Of a stretch of DNA of 64,000 nucleotides, positions 24,001-39,000 are shown in pieces. Position numbers: made by a program. How positions within the stretch are numbered: position 1 is the stretch's first letter; each line of letters opens with the position of its first letter. The stretch is from the NCBI RefSeq assembly GCF_963676685.1, contig NC_092354.1:68014001-68078000 (forward strand), written 5' to 3'. The stretch comes from Mytilus edulis. Lineage: Eukaryota.

Positions 24001-27000
24001 ATAAATATTAAAAGATATCTATGATCATATTGCAAAAAAAATGGAAAACAACACGTTTTATAATTTATTGCGTCCGAAGCGCTTTTCTGGATTTACCTTC
24101 ATCAGGAACGCTCAAAGCCAAACATTTGAAATCCGAAGATGTATAAGTACCGAAAAATGTACTGTTATAGTAAAATGTTAGAATAAAAAGTTAACCCTTA
24201 CCATTCTTCATGGCTACTTTGTACTGATACATTTATTTCCTTATTGTACTATAAAACATCATTCTGTGTGAAACTGAAGTTGTTGCTTCCGTCATTTGGT
24301 ATGCAGTTTACATACACGTGTTTTTGATAAAAAAAAAACATTAGGAATCGAAAAACATATTTCACTTAAAATACACATCCTTGATTATTTCTGAAAACTG
24401 GATATGTAATTCATATTTAGGAAAAACAATTTTGTTGGCCTTACAGAATGTTTGTATTCAAAATAGGGATGGCAACGAGAACTCGTTTGCCTGTTATAAA
24501 TCTTGAGATATTTCTTCTCACATTACCGCTCACTTAAGTGCAGTTGAACTATCCCTTTCGTAATACTATTTAAAATTCCTTAACAATGTTGATAATGTAA
24601 CGTTAATCCTGCTTATATTATATTAAAATAATATTTTGAGGTAAGTGTTTTTTTTTCTATTCTATAACATTATTCGTTCATTCACTTATTTCAGCAAGTC
24701 AACATAGCGGCTCCTTGGTTACAAAATGTCAACAGTGAATTTGACGGTAGCTTACGAGAAAAAAAAATGTAAATCAAAAATGGAATATGTTTGGTTTGAG
24801 AATTAAATAAATCAATATCGCTTCCATGATTTTTTTTTCAAAACAATTAATGATGTGACATTAACATCATTTCCTAATTAATAAAATTTTTATTCAGATG
24901 TGACACGAAACATTACATTAGATTTCTGTTTACATGATGTGTGATCAGTCAGTTCCAAAACGGCTATCCGTCTATTTATATCAGACGGATATTCCGTCTT
25001 ATCAATACGGATCTCAGTTTTTCTTCCGTTCGGTATATATATATATTGAGCGTACCTATTATTAGAAATATATTGGAAACCCCCTTGTCTAAAGTAGTCT
25101 CCGTTCGAGTTTTACGAGATCTCGCGAGATTTCCGGCTATTTTAATCCAGAATTGCACCAAAATGGAGGACACAAGTGTCGATATCGGTGGGTAGAAAAG
25201 TCCAAATATTTTATGTTTGCGTGTTTCTATCAATTTGATAATTGCAAATCAGAAAGAAAACATTCCAAATTAATGAAAAAATCTAATACAAACGGCATTT
25301 AAATGTTTTAACACAGCGACCGAAGCCGACCGAATTGAACAAAAAACAGAGATAAAAACAACTGTACGGATTCCCCGTCTACAACATAAAATAAACAATA
25401 CGGATCTTCCGTCTACAACTAAAAACAAACTAGACAGGATTTCCGTCTACAAATAAAAGCAAACTATACGGACTTTCCGTCTACACACTAAAGCACACTA
25501 GATGGATTTACCGTCTTCTCAAATTAAATCAATGTAGACGGATAATCGTTCTTAATTTTTTAATTATGTTTACGTTACTCAGAGTCAGCATGGACGTGCC
25601 TTTCCATTACATTTTGAAAAGGGGGAGGGCTGCATTAAAATAGTATGAGGTCCTAAAGGATGAAATGCATAGGCACCAGATGAAGGCAACAGTTTCAAAC
25701 TGAAAAACAGACAATGGGGACCTTTTGTTCCCCATAATTTTCTGTGAATCGGGGGGTTTTAAAGACAATAAAGTTTCACTAAAGTCAAAAGTTTGGAGCA
25801 AACCATAATCTGTTATGTCATATATTATACCTCAAAATAATTGTCTTTACTCATGAATACTACATGAATATGACATTGAAAAACCATAAATTCACAAACA
25901 TAACTTATTGTTGAGGAAAACAGCCCCCCTTTTTTGCAAAAAATCCAGAGCAGTTTTGAACTATTCGTTTTATTTATCAAAATATGATAAATGTGTTGTT
26001 TAAAAATCCATACAGGGCAAGCTGTCCTTTTTTAGACATTTTTAAAAATTGCTAATTAGATCACCAGAAAGAAAAACAATATGTTAACATGAAAGTGAAA
26101 GTAGGTTTATATGTCAGCCCCCTTTTTTTGCAAAAAGTCCAGAGCAGTTTTGAACTATTCGTTTTATTTATCAAAATATGATAAATGTGTTCTTTAAAAA
26201 TCCATACAGGGCAAGCTGTCCTTTTTCAGACATTTTTAAAATTGCTAATTAGATCACCAGAAAGAAAAACAAAATGTTAACATGAAAGTGAAAGTAGGTT
26301 TATATGTCCTTCAAATTGTACTTTCATTTTAGTATTCAACACATTTTTCGTTTGACTGACTTTAAATAGGTTTTATTTCTAAAAAGGACAGCTTGCCCTG
26401 CATTGATGTTTTACGAACACATTTTGCATACTTTCACAAGCAAAAATGATAATATAAATGCTCTGGATTTTTTTTTTTTATAGGGGAGTGCATTTTTCTG
26501 AATAATAAGTTATAGTTGTGAATTTATGCTTTTTCAATGTCATATTCATGTAGAGTGAGTAAAGACGATTATTTTGACGTATAATATATGATATAACAGA
26601 TTACAGTTTGCTCCAAACAGACATTATAAACAGGCCGGGATTTTGACCAAAGAAGAACCTTAAGTTGGTGGTAGGGTGGGGCTCCGGAAAATGCAAAGGG
26701 GGATTTTTTTTTTAATTTCATGGTTGATTGACTTTTTTGTTTGGATCTTGATATGTAGATGAAGATGCATTAATTGATATATAGTCGGAAACCTTCATTT
26801 TTTTTTATAGGGGGAAGGACCATTTTTTGATACTTTAGTTCAAGGCATACCGGTATATGGTGACAATGGCAGATTAAGCACCCGCCACGCCCCCCCCCCC
26901 CCCCCCCCCCCCCCCAATTTTTGTGAGTGAACAAAATTGTTTTGAAACAATAGAAAATCATTTTTAAAGTGTGACACTTGTCTGGGTTTTTTGAAATTTC

Positions 27001-36000: not shown

Positions 36001-39000
36001 AGGGAGAGGTAGGGGAAGAGGGAGAGGGAGAGGTAGAGGGCGAGGTAGAGGGCGAGGTAGAGAGGTTGACTAAATATCCAGCAGCTGTAGTATATCAGTT
36101 ATCTATGCTTAAAGCCGTGGGTATTGATATTGTACCACCCTGAAGCACTTTTGTGCAGCCTGAGGCGTAGCCGAAGGTTGTACAGTTGTGCTGAAGGGTG
36201 GTACAATCTCAATTCCCATGGCTATATGGGTAATTAACAGATTTATCCCCGGCTTGGCTTCAATACGGAAAGTACATGCATCATAAATGAAATGTAAGCG
36301 ACGCAATTCCAACGTCTTTTTCATTACGCGTTGAAATAAATATTCCGATATATCTTTATAAAGGGAAAAAGTTTTTACCGATGTTAAAATCTCATAAAGT
36401 TGATTTCAAAGACAAAGCAAGGTAACACATAAAAACTTAGAGAATCACATTGACTCTGATCAGAGCGAAACAGGGTGCGTGAACTGGTCTCCAGTGATGC
36501 ATGCATTACCGTCTATGCGAATCCATACTCACTCAAAATGTCAAACTTGGGAATGTGAAACAATCGAAAGTCCAATAGATTAGACGACTATTCAAGTATC
36601 TACAAAATAAAAACAATGTAAGTAATAGGGATCGATATATCAGTTAACCATGTCGTGGTGGTGACCGTATAACTTATGTCGTATCGATTCAGTCAATCCT
36701 ATTGAAAAAAAACTTGTGGAGCCTTTTTTTATTTTAACTCAAAACCATTTGACTGCCAAAAACGTATGTATTATATGAGCATACATCAGTGTATCACAAC
36801 AAAACGATAGCATGGAGGGGAATGCACTGCCGCAAAAAAGAAACGTTGATAACGAGATGTCTGACGCAGATGCAAAGTTTTGAGACGTTCATCGATCATC
36901 TGTGTCAATTTCGAGAAAAAAAGATATGTAGATTTTGATCATTATTATGGAATTTTAAACAATCAGTTTTTGTGTTTCAGTTTGTTTCTACTCATATAAG
37001 AACAGAGTCGACCAGAAAGAGTGCACATTTAGTACCCATGTGTGTACCAGTAATAGAACAAACTTTTTGATTATTAAAATGTCTAGCATTTTGATGCATA
37101 GTTGAAGAGCATAAGTGACCCAAAATTCCCCAAAATTGTGCCAAATACGGCCAAGGTTATCTATTCCTGGGATAAAAAAATCCTAAGTATTTCGAATAAT
37201 TCATGATTTTGCAATCAGTAATTTTGAATGTAAAAAATACCGTTTAATTGATATTCATGTCAACAACGAAGTACGGACTACCGGGCTGGTGATATCATCG
37301 GGAATACACACGTCTACCAGTAGTGGCATCGACCCAGTGGTGTTAATAGTTATCAAAGATACAAGGCTTATAATTTAATACCCTAAACTTACGTTTCGTT
37401 TATATAAGACTCTTCAATGACGCTCAGATCAAAAAAGTTGAAGACAATTGATGACTCAAAATTCCAAAAAATTGTGCCAAACACTGCTAAGGCTATCTTT
37501 TCCTTGGATAAGAAAATCCTTAGTATTTCAAATAATTTATACTTTTGCAAACAGTAGATTTATAAAAATGACTATTTAATTGATATTCATGTCAACACCA
37601 AAGTACTGGGCTGGTGATAACCTAGGGGACGAAACGTCCACCAGCAGTGGCATTTAACCTGTCGTGTAAATAGTTATCAAAAGTACCAGGATTATAATTT
37701 AATCCGCCATACTTGCGTTTCGTCTACATAAGACTCATCAGTGACGCTCAGATTTAAAAAGTTAGAAAGCTCAACAATAGTTTTATCGATGTTCATGTAT
37801 AATATCTATTTAACGAGAAGACCTCATTTTGTGTGTCGCGTCCTATTCATCCCACAATAAACTGATCATCATGCATCTGTGTCTTATAGGTACCATACAT
37901 AGTCGCATTTGTCATCCATTCTTATGACTATTCAGTTTGGGTTATTTTGGGAGAAAAACGAAATCAAAAGCGTCCGGATATTAATTCCGTCATCAGACCA
38001 ACTTTCATGTCAGACATAACTACCGGTTTTAACATTGAGAACCAATGGTATGAAAGATAACAAAAATGAAAAATAAATAAGCCAATCAGAGTGTTGTCCA
38101 TATCGTGGTATTTAGATAGTAAGAATCACTACTATTATACCTCGGTTTTAACGTACACATAATTTTCATAAGTACTCGGACGTGGACAGGACAAATATTT
38201 TTGCGTTAATCTGCATGTACTCTATATACTATGATTAATATACTACTATAACATATATATAGACACTCTATGTAATATAGCAGTGATCGCCATGGAGAAG
38301 AAACTTAGAATTAATAGTTAATAGAAAATTAAATACACTTACATATTTAATAGTTACGTATGTTCATAGCAGAGACATTGAATGTATCATATGTCTCTGT
38401 TCATAGTACAGAAACGCGAAAATAATGGAATATAACAGAAAAACAAATGATAACGGACTTTGAAAAAAAGAGAGAGTGCTTTAAAATATTGTCCTGTCTC
38501 CATGTACCTATATGACTTTTGATATCATTTCTTAAATTCTCCAGACATAAAATCTTTTACAAAAATTCGTTCTAAAAGAGATAACATACTTTCAACCAAG
38601 CTTAAAATGCCCGCGATTTCGTTCTTAAGTCAAACAGGACTCCCGGTTTTAAACGTGCACATAAATTTCAAAAGAGTGATCGGGAATAGCACAATAATTA
38701 TCGGGTTGCTAGAGACTCTCTCTATAATATAGCAGTGATCGCCTATAAGAAGAAACTTGAAATTGATAGTTAATAGCAAATACACTTTATTTATAGGATA
38801 CGTATGTTCATTGTAAACAGAAACGCGCAAATAATGAACAGAAAAAAAATAATAACGGACTTTGGAAACAAGGGAGAGGGCCGAAACTGTTTCCAAGTAC
38901 CTTTGAATTTTGATAACTTTTTACTGAAATTCTCCAGACACAAAATCTTTTATAAAATCTCTCCCTACAACAGTGTACATACTTTCAACCAAGCTCTAAA

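What the first reader, a model, noticed from the sequence alone, without database searches (positions are those of the whole stretch)
25163..36073. One transcription unit, two proteins: transposase as a skippable 3-kb cassette exon (En/Spm TnpA/TnpD-like logic)
Seen in the sequence: the candidate exon 1 (25163-25187) ends in phase 1, and the transposase exon starts in phase 1 and contains its own stop at 32116. A strong donor G|GTAAGT follows at 32124. Five more exons (132, 63, 99, 87 and 623 nt) are all phase 1 and stop-free. Skipping 29079-32123 gives a clean 1029-nt CDS (342 aa); including it gives a 1020-aa transposase. Established knowledge: maize En/Spm makes TnpA and TnpD from one promoter, with the transposase ORFs lying in the large intron of the TnpA transcript. 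Inference: this is a two-component element whose transposase-to-regulator ratio is set by splicing. The transposase isoform would be an NMD target because five junctions lie downstream of its stop.
[Added by the scan's program, not by the reader: the finding's places include an assembly gap (unread letters, written N; its length is only estimated) at 28078 to 28177. Whether the letters on both sides are continuous or in frame is not known: test that first.]
Basis: partly seen in the sequence, partly recalled or inferred. Interest (0 to 1): 0.8.

Follow-up and report, generated by a model that had tools for sequence, protein, structure and literature searches.

The report
Mollusc Chapaev-type transposase with companion gene
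An intact transposase gene related to the front end of the immune recombinase RAG1 lies head to tail with a small five-exon gene for a probable DNA-binding protein, and the two look like one unit, but whether one promoter and alternative splicing make both proteins is not shown.

Summary
The coordinates, phases and lengths in the finding are correct. The N gap lies inside proposed intron 1 and touches no exon.

The 3-kb exon is an intact 1011-codon ORF with no ATG before residue 196. It has a RAG1-NZD/Chapa-like zinc domain and a CMC-type D..D..C(2)C..H(4)H..E signature.

The last downstream exon belongs to a conserved, unnamed family (27 hits), including a 361-aa Crassostrea virginica RefSeq isoform. 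Its model resembles the MADS/MEF2 fold, as a lead only. The four small exons exceed chance.

In one relative the companion ORF overlaps the transposase's last 20 codons. That argues against a chance insertion into a host gene.

A CpG-depleted block (observed/expected 0.41 against 1.00) runs from about 25600 to 36240. A CpG-rich patch around candidate exon 1 precedes it.

Not shown:
- exon 1 itself (seven candidates, no homology);
- exon skipping;
- ratio control and NMD;
- terminal repeats.

The architecture has precedents in maize Spm and Schistosoma SmTRC1.

The parts
24901..25600 (+). CpG-rich, promoter-like patch around candidate exon 1. It holds an array of palindromic ACGGA-N3-4-TCCGT(CTA) motifs on both sides of the exon, including a 34-nt tandem array at 25353-25516.
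   Evidence: CpG o/e is 1.58 here against 0.41 downstream. 13 of the window's 80 ACGGA/TCCGT sites lie in 24967-25538. The strict pattern has 4 matches against 0.02 expected, 3 of them here. TRF period 34/68.
25120..25129 (+). Palindrome TCTCGCGAGA, 34 nt upstream of the ATG. It is a known metazoan core-promoter motif by my recall, not by a tool.
   Evidence: It is the only match in the window at up to 1 mismatch. Expected 0.31; 29 of 100 shuffles have at least one match. By itself it is weak evidence.
25163..25187 (+). Candidate exon 1: ATG in an AAAATGG context, 8 codons plus 1 base, donor GTGGGT. Unverified.
   Evidence: It is one of 7 candidates and has no homology support. Its position at the 5' edge of the CpG-depleted block favours it.
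25188..29078 (+). Proposed intron 1. It is filled with repeats and holds the assembly gap at 28078-28177.
   Evidence: CpG o/e is 0.41, the same as the exons downstream. Repeats. A stretch right of the gap (28201-28277) is 81% identical to one left of it (27825-27902), in the same orientation.
28521..29044 (.). Array of palindromic ATAAGATATCT-type motifs just upstream of the transposase acceptor. It is split by an unrelated insert.
   Evidence: 16 of the window's 25 matches lie here; 9.3 are expected in the whole window, and 0 of 100 shuffles reach 25. Direct and inverted copies.
29079..32123 (+). Transposase exon. The ORF runs 29081-32116 (1011 codons) and is intact: 0 internal stops and 0 frameshifts against relatives. 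No ATG before residue 196.
   Evidence: Of 11 relatives, the closest is 1005/1009 identical and the others 38-47%. Atlas neighbours are mollusc DUF6589 clusters, score 0.94.
29120..29398 (+). Chapa / RAG1-NZD-like zinc domain (residues about 14-106).
   Evidence: Pfam RAG1_imp_bd E 3.1e-4, below its cut-off. PDB 21wb_A E 1.2e-3. Family profile against mouse RAG1 residues 156-257, E 4.7e-5. Cys/His columns are conserved where relatives are full length.
29915..30901 (+). Putative catalytic region: D279, D546, C563-x2-C566, H579-x4-H584, E607.
   Evidence: D279, D546, C563, C566, H579 and E607 are identical in 11 of 11; H584 in 6 of 11. The pattern is the CMC/CMCT signature described in PMC12730594. 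The assignment is by pattern, not by alignment to a reference.
31289..31582 (+). Match to Pfam DUF6589 (residues 737-834).
   Evidence: E 1.3e-6, 27.9 bits against a cut-off of 27.
32124..32171 (+). 48-nt intron directly after the transposase stop (GTAAGT ... T-run CAG).
   Evidence: It is predicted from signals only.
32172..32303 (+). Companion-gene exon 3. It is acidic, has a 9-nt coding repeat at 32249-32290, and has an in-frame ATG at 32201.
   Evidence: Homology to P0017 is marginal (8 of 500 shuffles).
32909..32971 (+). Companion-gene exon 4 (Ser-rich).
   Evidence: Splice signals and an open frame only. No homology support.
33334..33432 (+). Companion-gene exon 5. It carries the LSPV[LIV]P motif shared with oyster P0040 and with P0014.
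   Evidence: BLASTP E 7.9e-4 to P0040 residues 82-105. 1 of 500 shuffles reach the score against P0040, and 34 of 500 against P0014.
34396..34482 (+). Companion-gene exon 6.
   Evidence: Signals. Homology to P0014 is marginal (14 of 500 shuffles).
35451..36073 (+). Companion-gene last exon (206 codons plus stop). It holds the conserved domain and an RG-repeat tail at 35998-36062.
   Evidence: 27 hits, best E 1.8e-32. Oyster P0040: 33% identity over 184 aa, E 1e-23. The RG tail is shared by many relatives. No Pfam family.
35453..35785 (+). Well-modelled part of the domain (residues 1-111): long helix, beta-hairpin, helices. MADS/MEF2-like as a lead only.
   Evidence: pLDDT is 78-97 over the first 110 residues. 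The top 5 Foldseek PDB hits are all MEF2 chains, probability 0.80-0.97, but E 0.08-0.28. Atlas feature neighbours carry SRF-TF, score 0.83. 0 of 24 members match Pfam SRF-TF.
36335..36340 (+). First AATAAA after the stop; a possible poly(A) signal.
   Evidence: It lies close to the 3' edge of the CpG-depleted block at about 36240.
25600..36240 (.). CpG-depleted block. Its edges coincide with the proposed unit.
   Evidence: 125 CpG inside (o/e 0.41) against o/e 1.00 for the rest of 16-46 kb, by change-point fit. All ten 1-kb bins from 26001 to 36000 are 0.30-0.52; the flanking bins are 0.93-1.14; the GpC control is flat. None of the 108 400-nt windows starting between 25401 and 36101 reaches 0.9.

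Best explanation
The locus is one unit of about 11 kb that descends from a Chapaev-type cut-and-paste transposon of the CMC (CACTA/EnSpm-Mirage-Chapaev) group. It carries two co-oriented genes.

Gene 1 is an intact single-exon transposase body of 1011 codons. It has a RAG1-NZD-like Chapa zinc domain and a D..D..C(2)C..H(4)H..E core. It has no start codon of its own and opens at a phase-1 acceptor.

Gene 2 starts 55 nt after the transposase stop. Its five phase-1 exons encode an acidic/Ser-rich region followed by a conserved basic domain and an RG-repeat tail. I read this protein as a DNA-binding companion of about 340 aa. It plays the TnpA/ORF2 role by analogy and is not homologous to TnpA.

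The most likely mechanism is as follows. Transcription starts in the CpG-rich patch near 25.1 kb. A short ATG exon, most likely 25163-25187, is then spliced either to the transposase acceptor at 29079 or to the acceptor at 32172. One promoter therefore yields either a transposase message, with the companion frame lying untranslated behind the stop, or a companion message.

Shown: the two genes, their integrity, their linkage in one relative, and the single CpG-depleted block.

Inferred: the identity of exon 1, the skipping, any control of the ratio, DNA binding by the companion, and whether this copy can still move.
For: - Exons and phases are as stated.
- The transposase identity rests. Its native stop and full length match the relatives.
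- There is no ATG before residue 196, although the N-terminal zinc domain is conserved.
- The companion family has 27 hits, and the domain always sits at the C-end of proteins of 200-416 aa. It includes a C. virginica RefSeq 'isoform X4' of 361 aa.
- Exon 5 is homologous to the oyster protein. The small exons are far above chance.
- The first 19 residues of P0017 are the +1-frame reading of the last 20 codons of transposase P0005. This is the only such pair among 297 tested.
- Oyster methylation rises after the TSS, plateaus along the gene body and falls after the TTS (PMC4378273, passages).
- Precedent: Spm tnpA-D arise by alternative splicing, tnpD carries two ORFs in tandem, and SmTRC1 behaves similarly in an animal (PMC1636069, passages).
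Against: - No transcript data could be consulted, so no junction is observed.
- Exon 1 is 8 codons with no homology and is one of 7 candidates. One rival at 28233-28332 has a better donor.
- The assembly gap lies between exon 1 and everything else.
- Linkage in relatives rests on one pair. None of the 8 companion hits shares a longest-contig length with any of the 11 transposase hits.
- In the P0017 relative the companion frame is +1 relative to the transposase frame. If that record is a spliced message, its transposase exon would not be a symmetric cassette.
- No TIR or TSD was found.
- The transposase model was poor (pLDDT 54.6) and its fold search was empty.
- The MADS-like fold is below significance and has no sequence support.
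- Oysters also methylate young repeats, so the CpG block may mark an element rather than a transcript.
Confidence: 0.5

Rival explanations
1. This is a host gene with a nested transposase. Exon 1 plus exons 3-7 form an ordinary cellular gene, the counterpart of oyster LOC111112685. A Chapaev-type transposase gene sits in its first intron in the sense orientation, and the adjacency has no function.
For: - The companion's oyster homologue is annotated as a normal multi-isoform gene.
- None of the 8 companion hits shares a contig length with the 11 transposase hits.
- No TIRs mark an element that includes both genes.
- The CpG block fits any expressed host gene.
Against: - P0017 overlaps the 3' end of transposase P0005 in a relative only about 44% identical to this one, so the adjacency is conserved.
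- Only 55 nt separate the transposase stop from exon 3. That leaves no room for a transposon end.
- No TIRs were found around the transposase alone either.
- The transposase lacks its own ATG and starts at an acceptor.
Confidence: 0.15
2. Two genes, but no exon skipping. The companion is made from its own start, the in-frame ATG at 32201 in exon 3. It would be read on a separate transcript, or on the long transcript as a second cistron. The upstream exon serves the transposase only, or is a different exon such as 28233-28332.
For: - There is an in-frame ATG in exon 3.
- The P0017-type record shows the companion frame contiguous with the transposase end.
- Exon 1 has no homology and 6 competitors.
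- The Spm tnpD message likewise carries two ORFs in tandem.
Against: - No CpG-rich patch lies anywhere between 25.4 and 36.1 kb to mark a second promoter.
- Exon 3 begins at a strong acceptor and so needs an upstream donor.
- Translation of a second cistron after a 3-kb ORF is inefficient. This is established knowledge and was not tested.
- The rival exon at 28233-28332 lies in a repeat that also occurs left of the gap.
Confidence: 0.2
3. This is a domesticated, immobile locus. The whole two-gene unit is now a host gene pair derived from a Chapaev element and kept for a cellular role. It may or may not be alternatively spliced.
For: - No TIR or TSD was found.
- There is only one copy in 64 kb.
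- Relatives are few, intact and about 45% identical to each other.
- The methylation-type signature looks like that of a gene body.
- The oyster homologue is annotated as a gene.
Against: - A 99.6% identical ORF exists on another record. It may be a second copy or only an allele.
- Atlas neighbours are clusters of 146 and 60 mollusc members, which suggests a multicopy family.
- Short or diverged TIRs in AT-rich DNA would escape my scans.
Confidence: 0.3

Closest known systems
Maize En/Spm (CACTA) transcription unit, tnpA/tnpD
   Same: It lies in the same transposase supergroup by the C(2)C/H(3-4)H signature. It has two proteins on one strand. Its long message carries the transposase ORF followed by the second ORF in tandem, and its short message lacks the transposase. 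Motif arrays lie near the 5' end.
   Different: The companion has no detectable similarity to TnpA or to any Pfam family. The transposase here is one exon, not ORFs spread through an intron of the short message. No CACTA termini or subterminal repeats were found at a 3' end. No splicing data exist.
SmTRC1 of Schistosoma mansoni (animal CACTA-superfamily element)
   Same: It is an animal element of the same supergroup, and ESTs and RT-PCR show it makes several alternatively spliced messages. The short ones lack the transposase domain, and one clone carries two ORFs in tandem (PMC1636069, passages).
   Different: SmTRC1 carries a Transposase_21 domain, which was not detected here at E up to 1. 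It has no Chapa domain as far as the passages I read say. Its small proteins are unrelated as far as I can tell.
Chapaev / Chapaev3 transposons, including the Aplysia element N-RAG-TP
   Same: They have an N-terminal Chapa zinc domain similar to the RAG1 NZD, attached to a CMC-type core. One of them, N-RAG-TP, is in a mollusc.
   Different: I could not compare with Repbase sequences. None of the passages I read mentions a second gene or alternative splicing in Chapaev elements. Here there is a RanBP2/NZF-like CxxC...CxxC finger at residues 416-433 and no RING finger was detected.
MADS-box / MEF2 DNA-binding domain
   Same: The model has a long helix, then a beta-hairpin, then a helix. The five best PDB matches are MEF2 chains, and the language-model neighbours carry SRF-TF.
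   Different: There is no sequence match: 0 of 24 members hit Pfam SRF-TF, and the family profile finds no MADS chain in the PDB. Foldseek E is 0.08-0.28 and rmsd about 8 A. An RG-repeat tail follows the domain.

Membership tests
Chapaev-type transposase (CMC/CMCT group) | N-terminal Chapa (RAG1 NZD-like) zinc domain | tested here: met
   The family profile hits RAG1 residues 156-257 at E 4.7e-5. The single sequence hits 21wb_A at E 1.2e-3. Pfam PF12560 gives E 3.1e-4, which is below its gathering score.
Chapaev-type transposase (CMC/CMCT group) | [quoted passage not shown] | tested here: met
   D279, D546, C563, C566, H579 and E607 are identical in 11 of 11; H584 in 6 of 11. The feature is defined in PMC12730594. 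Residues were assigned by pattern, not by alignment to a reference Chapaev.
Chapaev-type transposase (CMC/CMCT group) | Direct sequence or fold similarity of the core to a named CMC, Transib or RAG1 core | tested here: not met
   Pfam found no Transposase_21 or other transposase family at E up to 1. The PDB profile search matched only the RAG1 N-terminal region. The fold search gave 0 hits at E<=0.001 on a poor model. Repbase was not available.
Chapaev-type transposase (CMC/CMCT group) | Termini 5'-CA..TG-3' with inverted repeats and 2-5 bp target duplications | tested here: not met
   No pair stood above the control: 7 real hits against 7 control hits. The one 13-of-14 match does not extend.
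Chapaev-type transposase (CMC/CMCT group) | Several dispersed copies in the genome | not testable with these tools
   Only this window is held. One 99.6% identical ORF lies on another record. No eukaryotic genome collection was open.
En/Spm-like two-product transcription unit | Transposase and a second protein gene on the same strand of one unit | tested here: met
En/Spm-like two-product transcription unit | One promoter and alternative splicing give both messages | not testable with these tools
   No RNA data. The indirect evidence is a single CpG-rich 5' patch with no internal one.
En/Spm-like two-product transcription unit | The second protein is homologous to TnpA / plant ORF2 | tested here: not met
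   None of the 24 members has a significant Pfam family at E up to 10.
En/Spm-like two-product transcription unit | The second protein binds repeated motifs near the element's ends | not testable with these tools
   Motif arrays lie at 24960-25545 and 28521-29044. None was seen at a 3' end: there are 3 scattered core sites in 36000-38000.
MADS-box / MEF2 domain | Sequence match to SRF-TF (PF00319) | tested here: not met
   0 of 24 members. No MADS chain appears in the PDB profile search.
MADS-box / MEF2 domain | Helix / beta-hairpin / helix fold | tested here: inconclusive
   The top 5 Foldseek hits are MEF2, probability 0.80-0.97, TM (by target) 0.56-0.61, E 0.08-0.28. The Atlas score is 0.83, a lead only.

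The most novel reading that the evidence does not exclude
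Mollusc Chapaev-type elements, the transposon lineage that shares the RAG1 N-terminal zinc domain, are two-component elements. Skipping the transposase exon yields a companion protein with a MADS/MEF2-like fold. This protein binds the palindromic motif arrays around exon 1 and ahead of the transposase acceptor, and so feeds back on transcription or exon choice. That would be an animal counterpart of TnpA built from an unrelated fold.
Probability: 0.2. Interest if true: 0.75.

Novelty: new variant of a known kind. Interest (0 to 1): 0.55.

Why it matters
Chapaev transposases are the only transposon lineage known to carry the zinc domain found at the N-terminus of RAG1 (bioRxiv 10.64898/2026.01.24.700457, abstract and passages).

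A conserved companion gene behind such a transposase would add a second two-protein cut-and-paste system in animals, next to the RAG1-RAG2 type. If it is expressed by alternative splicing, it would extend the En/Spm expression logic from plants and a flatworm to molluscs.

The companion family has no name in Pfam and may be a diverged MADS-like DNA binder.

If the locus is instead domesticated, it is a candidate for a host gene pair born from a transposon.

Practically, the locus shows that CpG depletion can outline a transcription unit in a bivalve-like genome when no RNA data are at hand.

Tried and rejected
- TIR and TSD searches found nothing above chance. I ran the repeat finder, blastn of the left against the right flanks, and scripted scans for CA-started 14-mers with target duplications in three range pairs. 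A control range gave as many hits, 7 against 7. The best pair (25696/36984) does not extend.
- The transposase structure model was too poor (mean pLDDT 54.6). Foldseek gave 0 hits at E<=0.001, so I draw nothing from it except small zinc-ribbon matches.
- Matching longest-contig lengths between companion hits and transposase hits, as a linkage test, gave 0 of 8. This is uninformative rather than negative.
- A single-sequence word search with the last exon found only 1 protein.
- Exon peptides 1 and 4 have no similarity to relatives.
- No Rfam family was found in the window.
- Pfam found nothing for five other ORFs.
- The internal donor near 31904 is in phase 1, but such sites are common and no fused protein exists among the hits. 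I rejected it as unsupported.
- Literature. 'Chapaev' + 'alternative splicing' + 'transposase' gave 6 papers, none about splicing of Chapaev elements as far as the listing and the one paper I opened show. A five-term search with at least two terms required was badly designed and uninformative. 'LOC111112685' gave 0 papers and 'DUF6589' gave 1 unrelated paper. My statement that a Chapaev companion gene is not in print rests only and the passages. Repbase Reports and supplements were not visible.
- Rows dropped. P0019 (chimeric with a MULE/ZSWIM part), P0027 (66 aa), P0035 (593-aa repeat protein with 6 stretches, probably spurious) and P0038 were left out of alignment A3, so A3 holds 23 of the 27 hits plus the window's exon. 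P0001 was left out of A1 as near-identical to the window.

Full report
OBSERVATION. The finding's anatomy is in the sequence as stated. I checked it exon by exon and never joined exons.
- 25163-25187 starts with ATG in an AAAATGG context and ends in phase 1 before GTGGGT.
- 29079-32123 opens after a T-run plus CAG. It carries a single in-frame stop at 32114-32116 and is followed by GTAAGT.
- The five further exons (132, 63, 99, 87 and 623 nt) are stop-free only in phase 1 (the 132-nt exon is also open at offset 0) and have CAG acceptors and GT donors.
- The lengths give 1029 nt (342 aa) without the big exon and 3063 nt (1020 aa) with it.
- As a chance control I counted phase-1/phase-1 exons of 60-140 nt whose splice signals are at least as good as the weakest observed. 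There are 5 acceptors in 32124-35450 (the 4 exons plus an alternative acceptor at 32208). Of 30 equal-sized control segments on both strands elsewhere in the window, 29 had 0 and 1 had 1. The thresholds were post hoc, which flatters the result, but the margin is large.

THE GAP. 28078-28177 is the only N run. It lies inside proposed intron 1, so no frame crosses it. Transposase relatives match only 29069-32065. What depends on the scaffold join is the link between exon 1 and everything else. There are two weak signs of continuity. CpG depletion is alike on both sides (0.44 and 0.47). A stretch right of the gap (28201-28277) is 81% identical, in the same orientation, to one left of it (27825-27902), so the gap sits in repeated DNA.

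THE TRANSPOSASE.
- The ORF 29081-32116 (1011 codons) is intact. It aligns over 99% of its length with relatives of 1002-1029 aa that end in similar acidic tails. I counted 0 stops and 0 frameshifts.
- 11 proteins matched at E<=0.001 among 8000 scored candidates. One is 1005/1009 identical on another record. The rest are 38-47% identical, and none exceeds 1029 aa.
- Pfam gives DUF6589 (E 1.3e-6, just above its cut-off) and RAG1_imp_bd (E 3.1e-4, below its cut-off).
- The sequence hits the new NMR structure of the mouse RAG1 N-terminal zinc domain, 21WB, at E 1.2e-3. The family profile hits RAG1 residues 156-257 at E 4.7e-5.
- The preprint 10.64898/2026.01.24.700457 (abstract and passages) and PMC4411706 (passages) say that this domain, the Chapa domain, is otherwise consistently retained only in Chapaev transposases. 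PMC8355894 (passage) describes the Aplysia element N-RAG-TP.
- Downstream, D279, D546, C563-x2-C566, H579-x4-H584 and E607 are conserved: 11 of 11 for each, except H584 at 6 of 11. This is the pattern that PMC12730594 (passages) gives for EnSpm, Mirage, Chapaev, Transib and RAG1.
- The core itself found no named relative by sequence or fold.
- Atlas neighbours are mollusc DUF6589 clusters of 146 and 60 members (score 0.94).
- The first in-frame ATG is at residue 196, behind the conserved zinc domain. A stop lies 7 codons before the ORF's first codon. The protein can therefore be made whole only from an upstream ATG exon.
- The database's leading M is not trustworthy. P0001 shows M where the window has GTG.

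THE COMPANION GENE.
- The last exon (first 183 residues) found 27 proteins at E<=0.001 among 1.84 billion representatives, the best at E 1.8e-32 and 41% identity. The domain always lies at the C-end of proteins of 66-416 aa, and none contains a transposase.
- A profile search added a named one: 'uncharacterized protein LOC111112685 isoform X4 [Crassostrea virginica]', 361 aa, 33% identical over 184 aa, E 1e-23. It has a 157-residue acidic N-part.
- Many relatives share the RG-repeat tail.
- Several relatives of about 200 aa open with peptide strings that read like a translated pyrimidine tract just before the point where the window's exon begins. I take this as a shared acceptor position. It is an inference from peptides only.
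- Homology of the small exons: exon 5 matches the oyster N-part (E 7.9e-4; 1 of 500 shuffles reach the score). Exons 3 and 6 are marginal (8 and 14 of 500, against P0017 and P0014). Exons 1 and 4 have no support.
- No Pfam family matches any of the 24 members.
- The AlphaFold model is confident over the first 110 residues (pLDDT 78-97). The five best PDB matches are all MEF2 MADS-box chains, with probability 0.80-0.97 and TM 0.56-0.61 by target, but E 0.08-0.28 and 0 hits at E<=0.001. The Atlas independently points to SRF-TF clusters at 0.83, a lead only.
- I therefore call the domain probably DNA-binding and MADS/MEF2-like in fold, with membership untested at sequence level.

LINKAGE. The first 19 residues of P0017 (324 aa, a companion-family protein) can be encoded by the +1 frame of the last 20 codons of P0005, a transposase 44% identical to the window's. 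It is the only pair with a compatible run of at least 8 among 11 x 27 = 297 pairs. In that relative the companion frame therefore runs on directly from the transposase's 3' end, with no stop for 324 codons. The record is either a spliced message or an intron-less copy. Either way, the adjacency seen in the window is conserved, which argues against a chance insertion into a host gene. Against wider linkage, this is one pair, and the contig-length comparison gave 0 of 8. In P0017 the two frames differ, whereas in the window they coincide after removal of the 48-nt intron.

ONE TRANSCRIPTION UNIT?
- CpG observed/expected is 0.30-0.52 in each of the ten 1-kb bins from 26001 to 36000. It is 1.08-1.14 in the two bins before and 0.93-1.04 in the four after. 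The GpC control is flat.
- A change-point fit puts the edges at about 25600 and 36240, with 0.41 inside and 1.00 outside.
- Intron 1, the transposase exon and the companion region are alike (0.41, 0.42, 0.39). The 24901-25600 patch is 1.58.
- None of the 108 400-nt windows starting between 25401 and 36101 reaches 0.9.
- In the Pacific oyster, methylation rises sharply after the TSS, stays on a plateau along the gene body and falls after the TTS. Young repeats are methylated too (PMC4378273, abstract and passages).
- The block therefore fits a germline-transcribed unit that starts near 25.1-25.6 kb and ends near the first AATAAA at 36335, with no second promoter-like patch. It could also simply outline a methylated element.
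- The CpG-rich patch holds the window's only TCTCGCGAGA. Its promoter role is my recall. The patch also holds an array of ACGGA-N3-4-TCCGT palindromes on both sides of exon 1.
- Exon 1 is unique in the window. It is only one of seven formally possible first exons.

ENDS AND MOBILITY. No terminal inverted repeats or target duplications were found. Whether this copy is a transposon, an immobile relic or a domesticated gene pair is open.

MECHANISM AND RIVALS. The best reading (confidence 0.5) is a shared 5' exon spliced either to 29079 or to 32172. The rivals are a host gene with a nested transposase (0.15), a companion with its own start at the ATG 32201 and no skipping (0.2), and a domesticated locus (0.3, which is compatible with the splicing model). 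The NMD claim rests on the vertebrate junction rule (recalled) and is untested in molluscs. Ratio control is inference.

COMPARISON AND NOVELTY. Spm makes tnpA-D by alternative splicing of one unit, and tnpD carries two ORFs in tandem. SmTRC1 shows the same habit in an animal (PMC1636069, passages). CACTA elements carry a transposase plus ORF2 (PMC4158355, passages). The window fits that kind in layout, with a Chapaev-type transposase and an unrelated companion. I rate it a new variant of a known kind.

NOT CHECKED. The supplementary tables of the NZD preprint may list Chapaev families that bear on this.

Noticed in passing
window 1-8000: This is a second CpG-depleted block (o/e 0.10-0.55 in eight 1-kb bins). 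It is probably the body of another expressed gene at the window's left end.
   Followed up: no
window 33646-34002 (minus strand): A 118-codon ORF lies on the opposite strand inside the intron between exons 5 and 6. It has no Pfam match and may be a fragment of another repeat.
   Followed up: partly
window 25791-26618: A nested set of inverted repeats (arms up to 84 nt, 63 nt at 92%) and a 194-nt tandem duplication (25921-26308, 96%) lie in intron 1. They look like foldback or MITE-type insertions.
   Followed up: no
window 26890-26915 and 27110-27408: There is a run of 26 C, followed by a 141-nt unit repeated 2.1 times in intron 1.
   Followed up: no
window 22071-22762, 37121-37777 and 42387-42430: Copies of one interspersed repeat family, in direct and inverted orientation, lie on both sides of the unit. 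They do not coincide with the CpG block edges, so I do not take them for the unit's ends.
   Followed up: partly
window 36091-36245: An almost perfect hairpin (76-nt arms, 74% complementary, 3 nt apart) starts 18 nt after the companion gene's stop, inside the likely 3' UTR.
   Followed up: no
window 32249-32290: A 9-nt unit is repeated 4.7 times inside exon 3 and encodes a repeated three-residue (Asp-Ile-Thr) motif. It is a likely site of length variation.
   Followed up: no
window 13651-14394, 41421-42080, 61042-61737 (minus strand): These are three ATG-started ORFs of 219-247 codons with no Pfam match.
   Followed up: partly
protein P0019 (not in the window): This is a 416-aa database protein. 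It joins a MULE/ZSWIM-type RNase-H-like transposase part (E 1.1e-36) to the start of the companion domain. It may be a chimeric record or a capture by another element.
   Followed up: no
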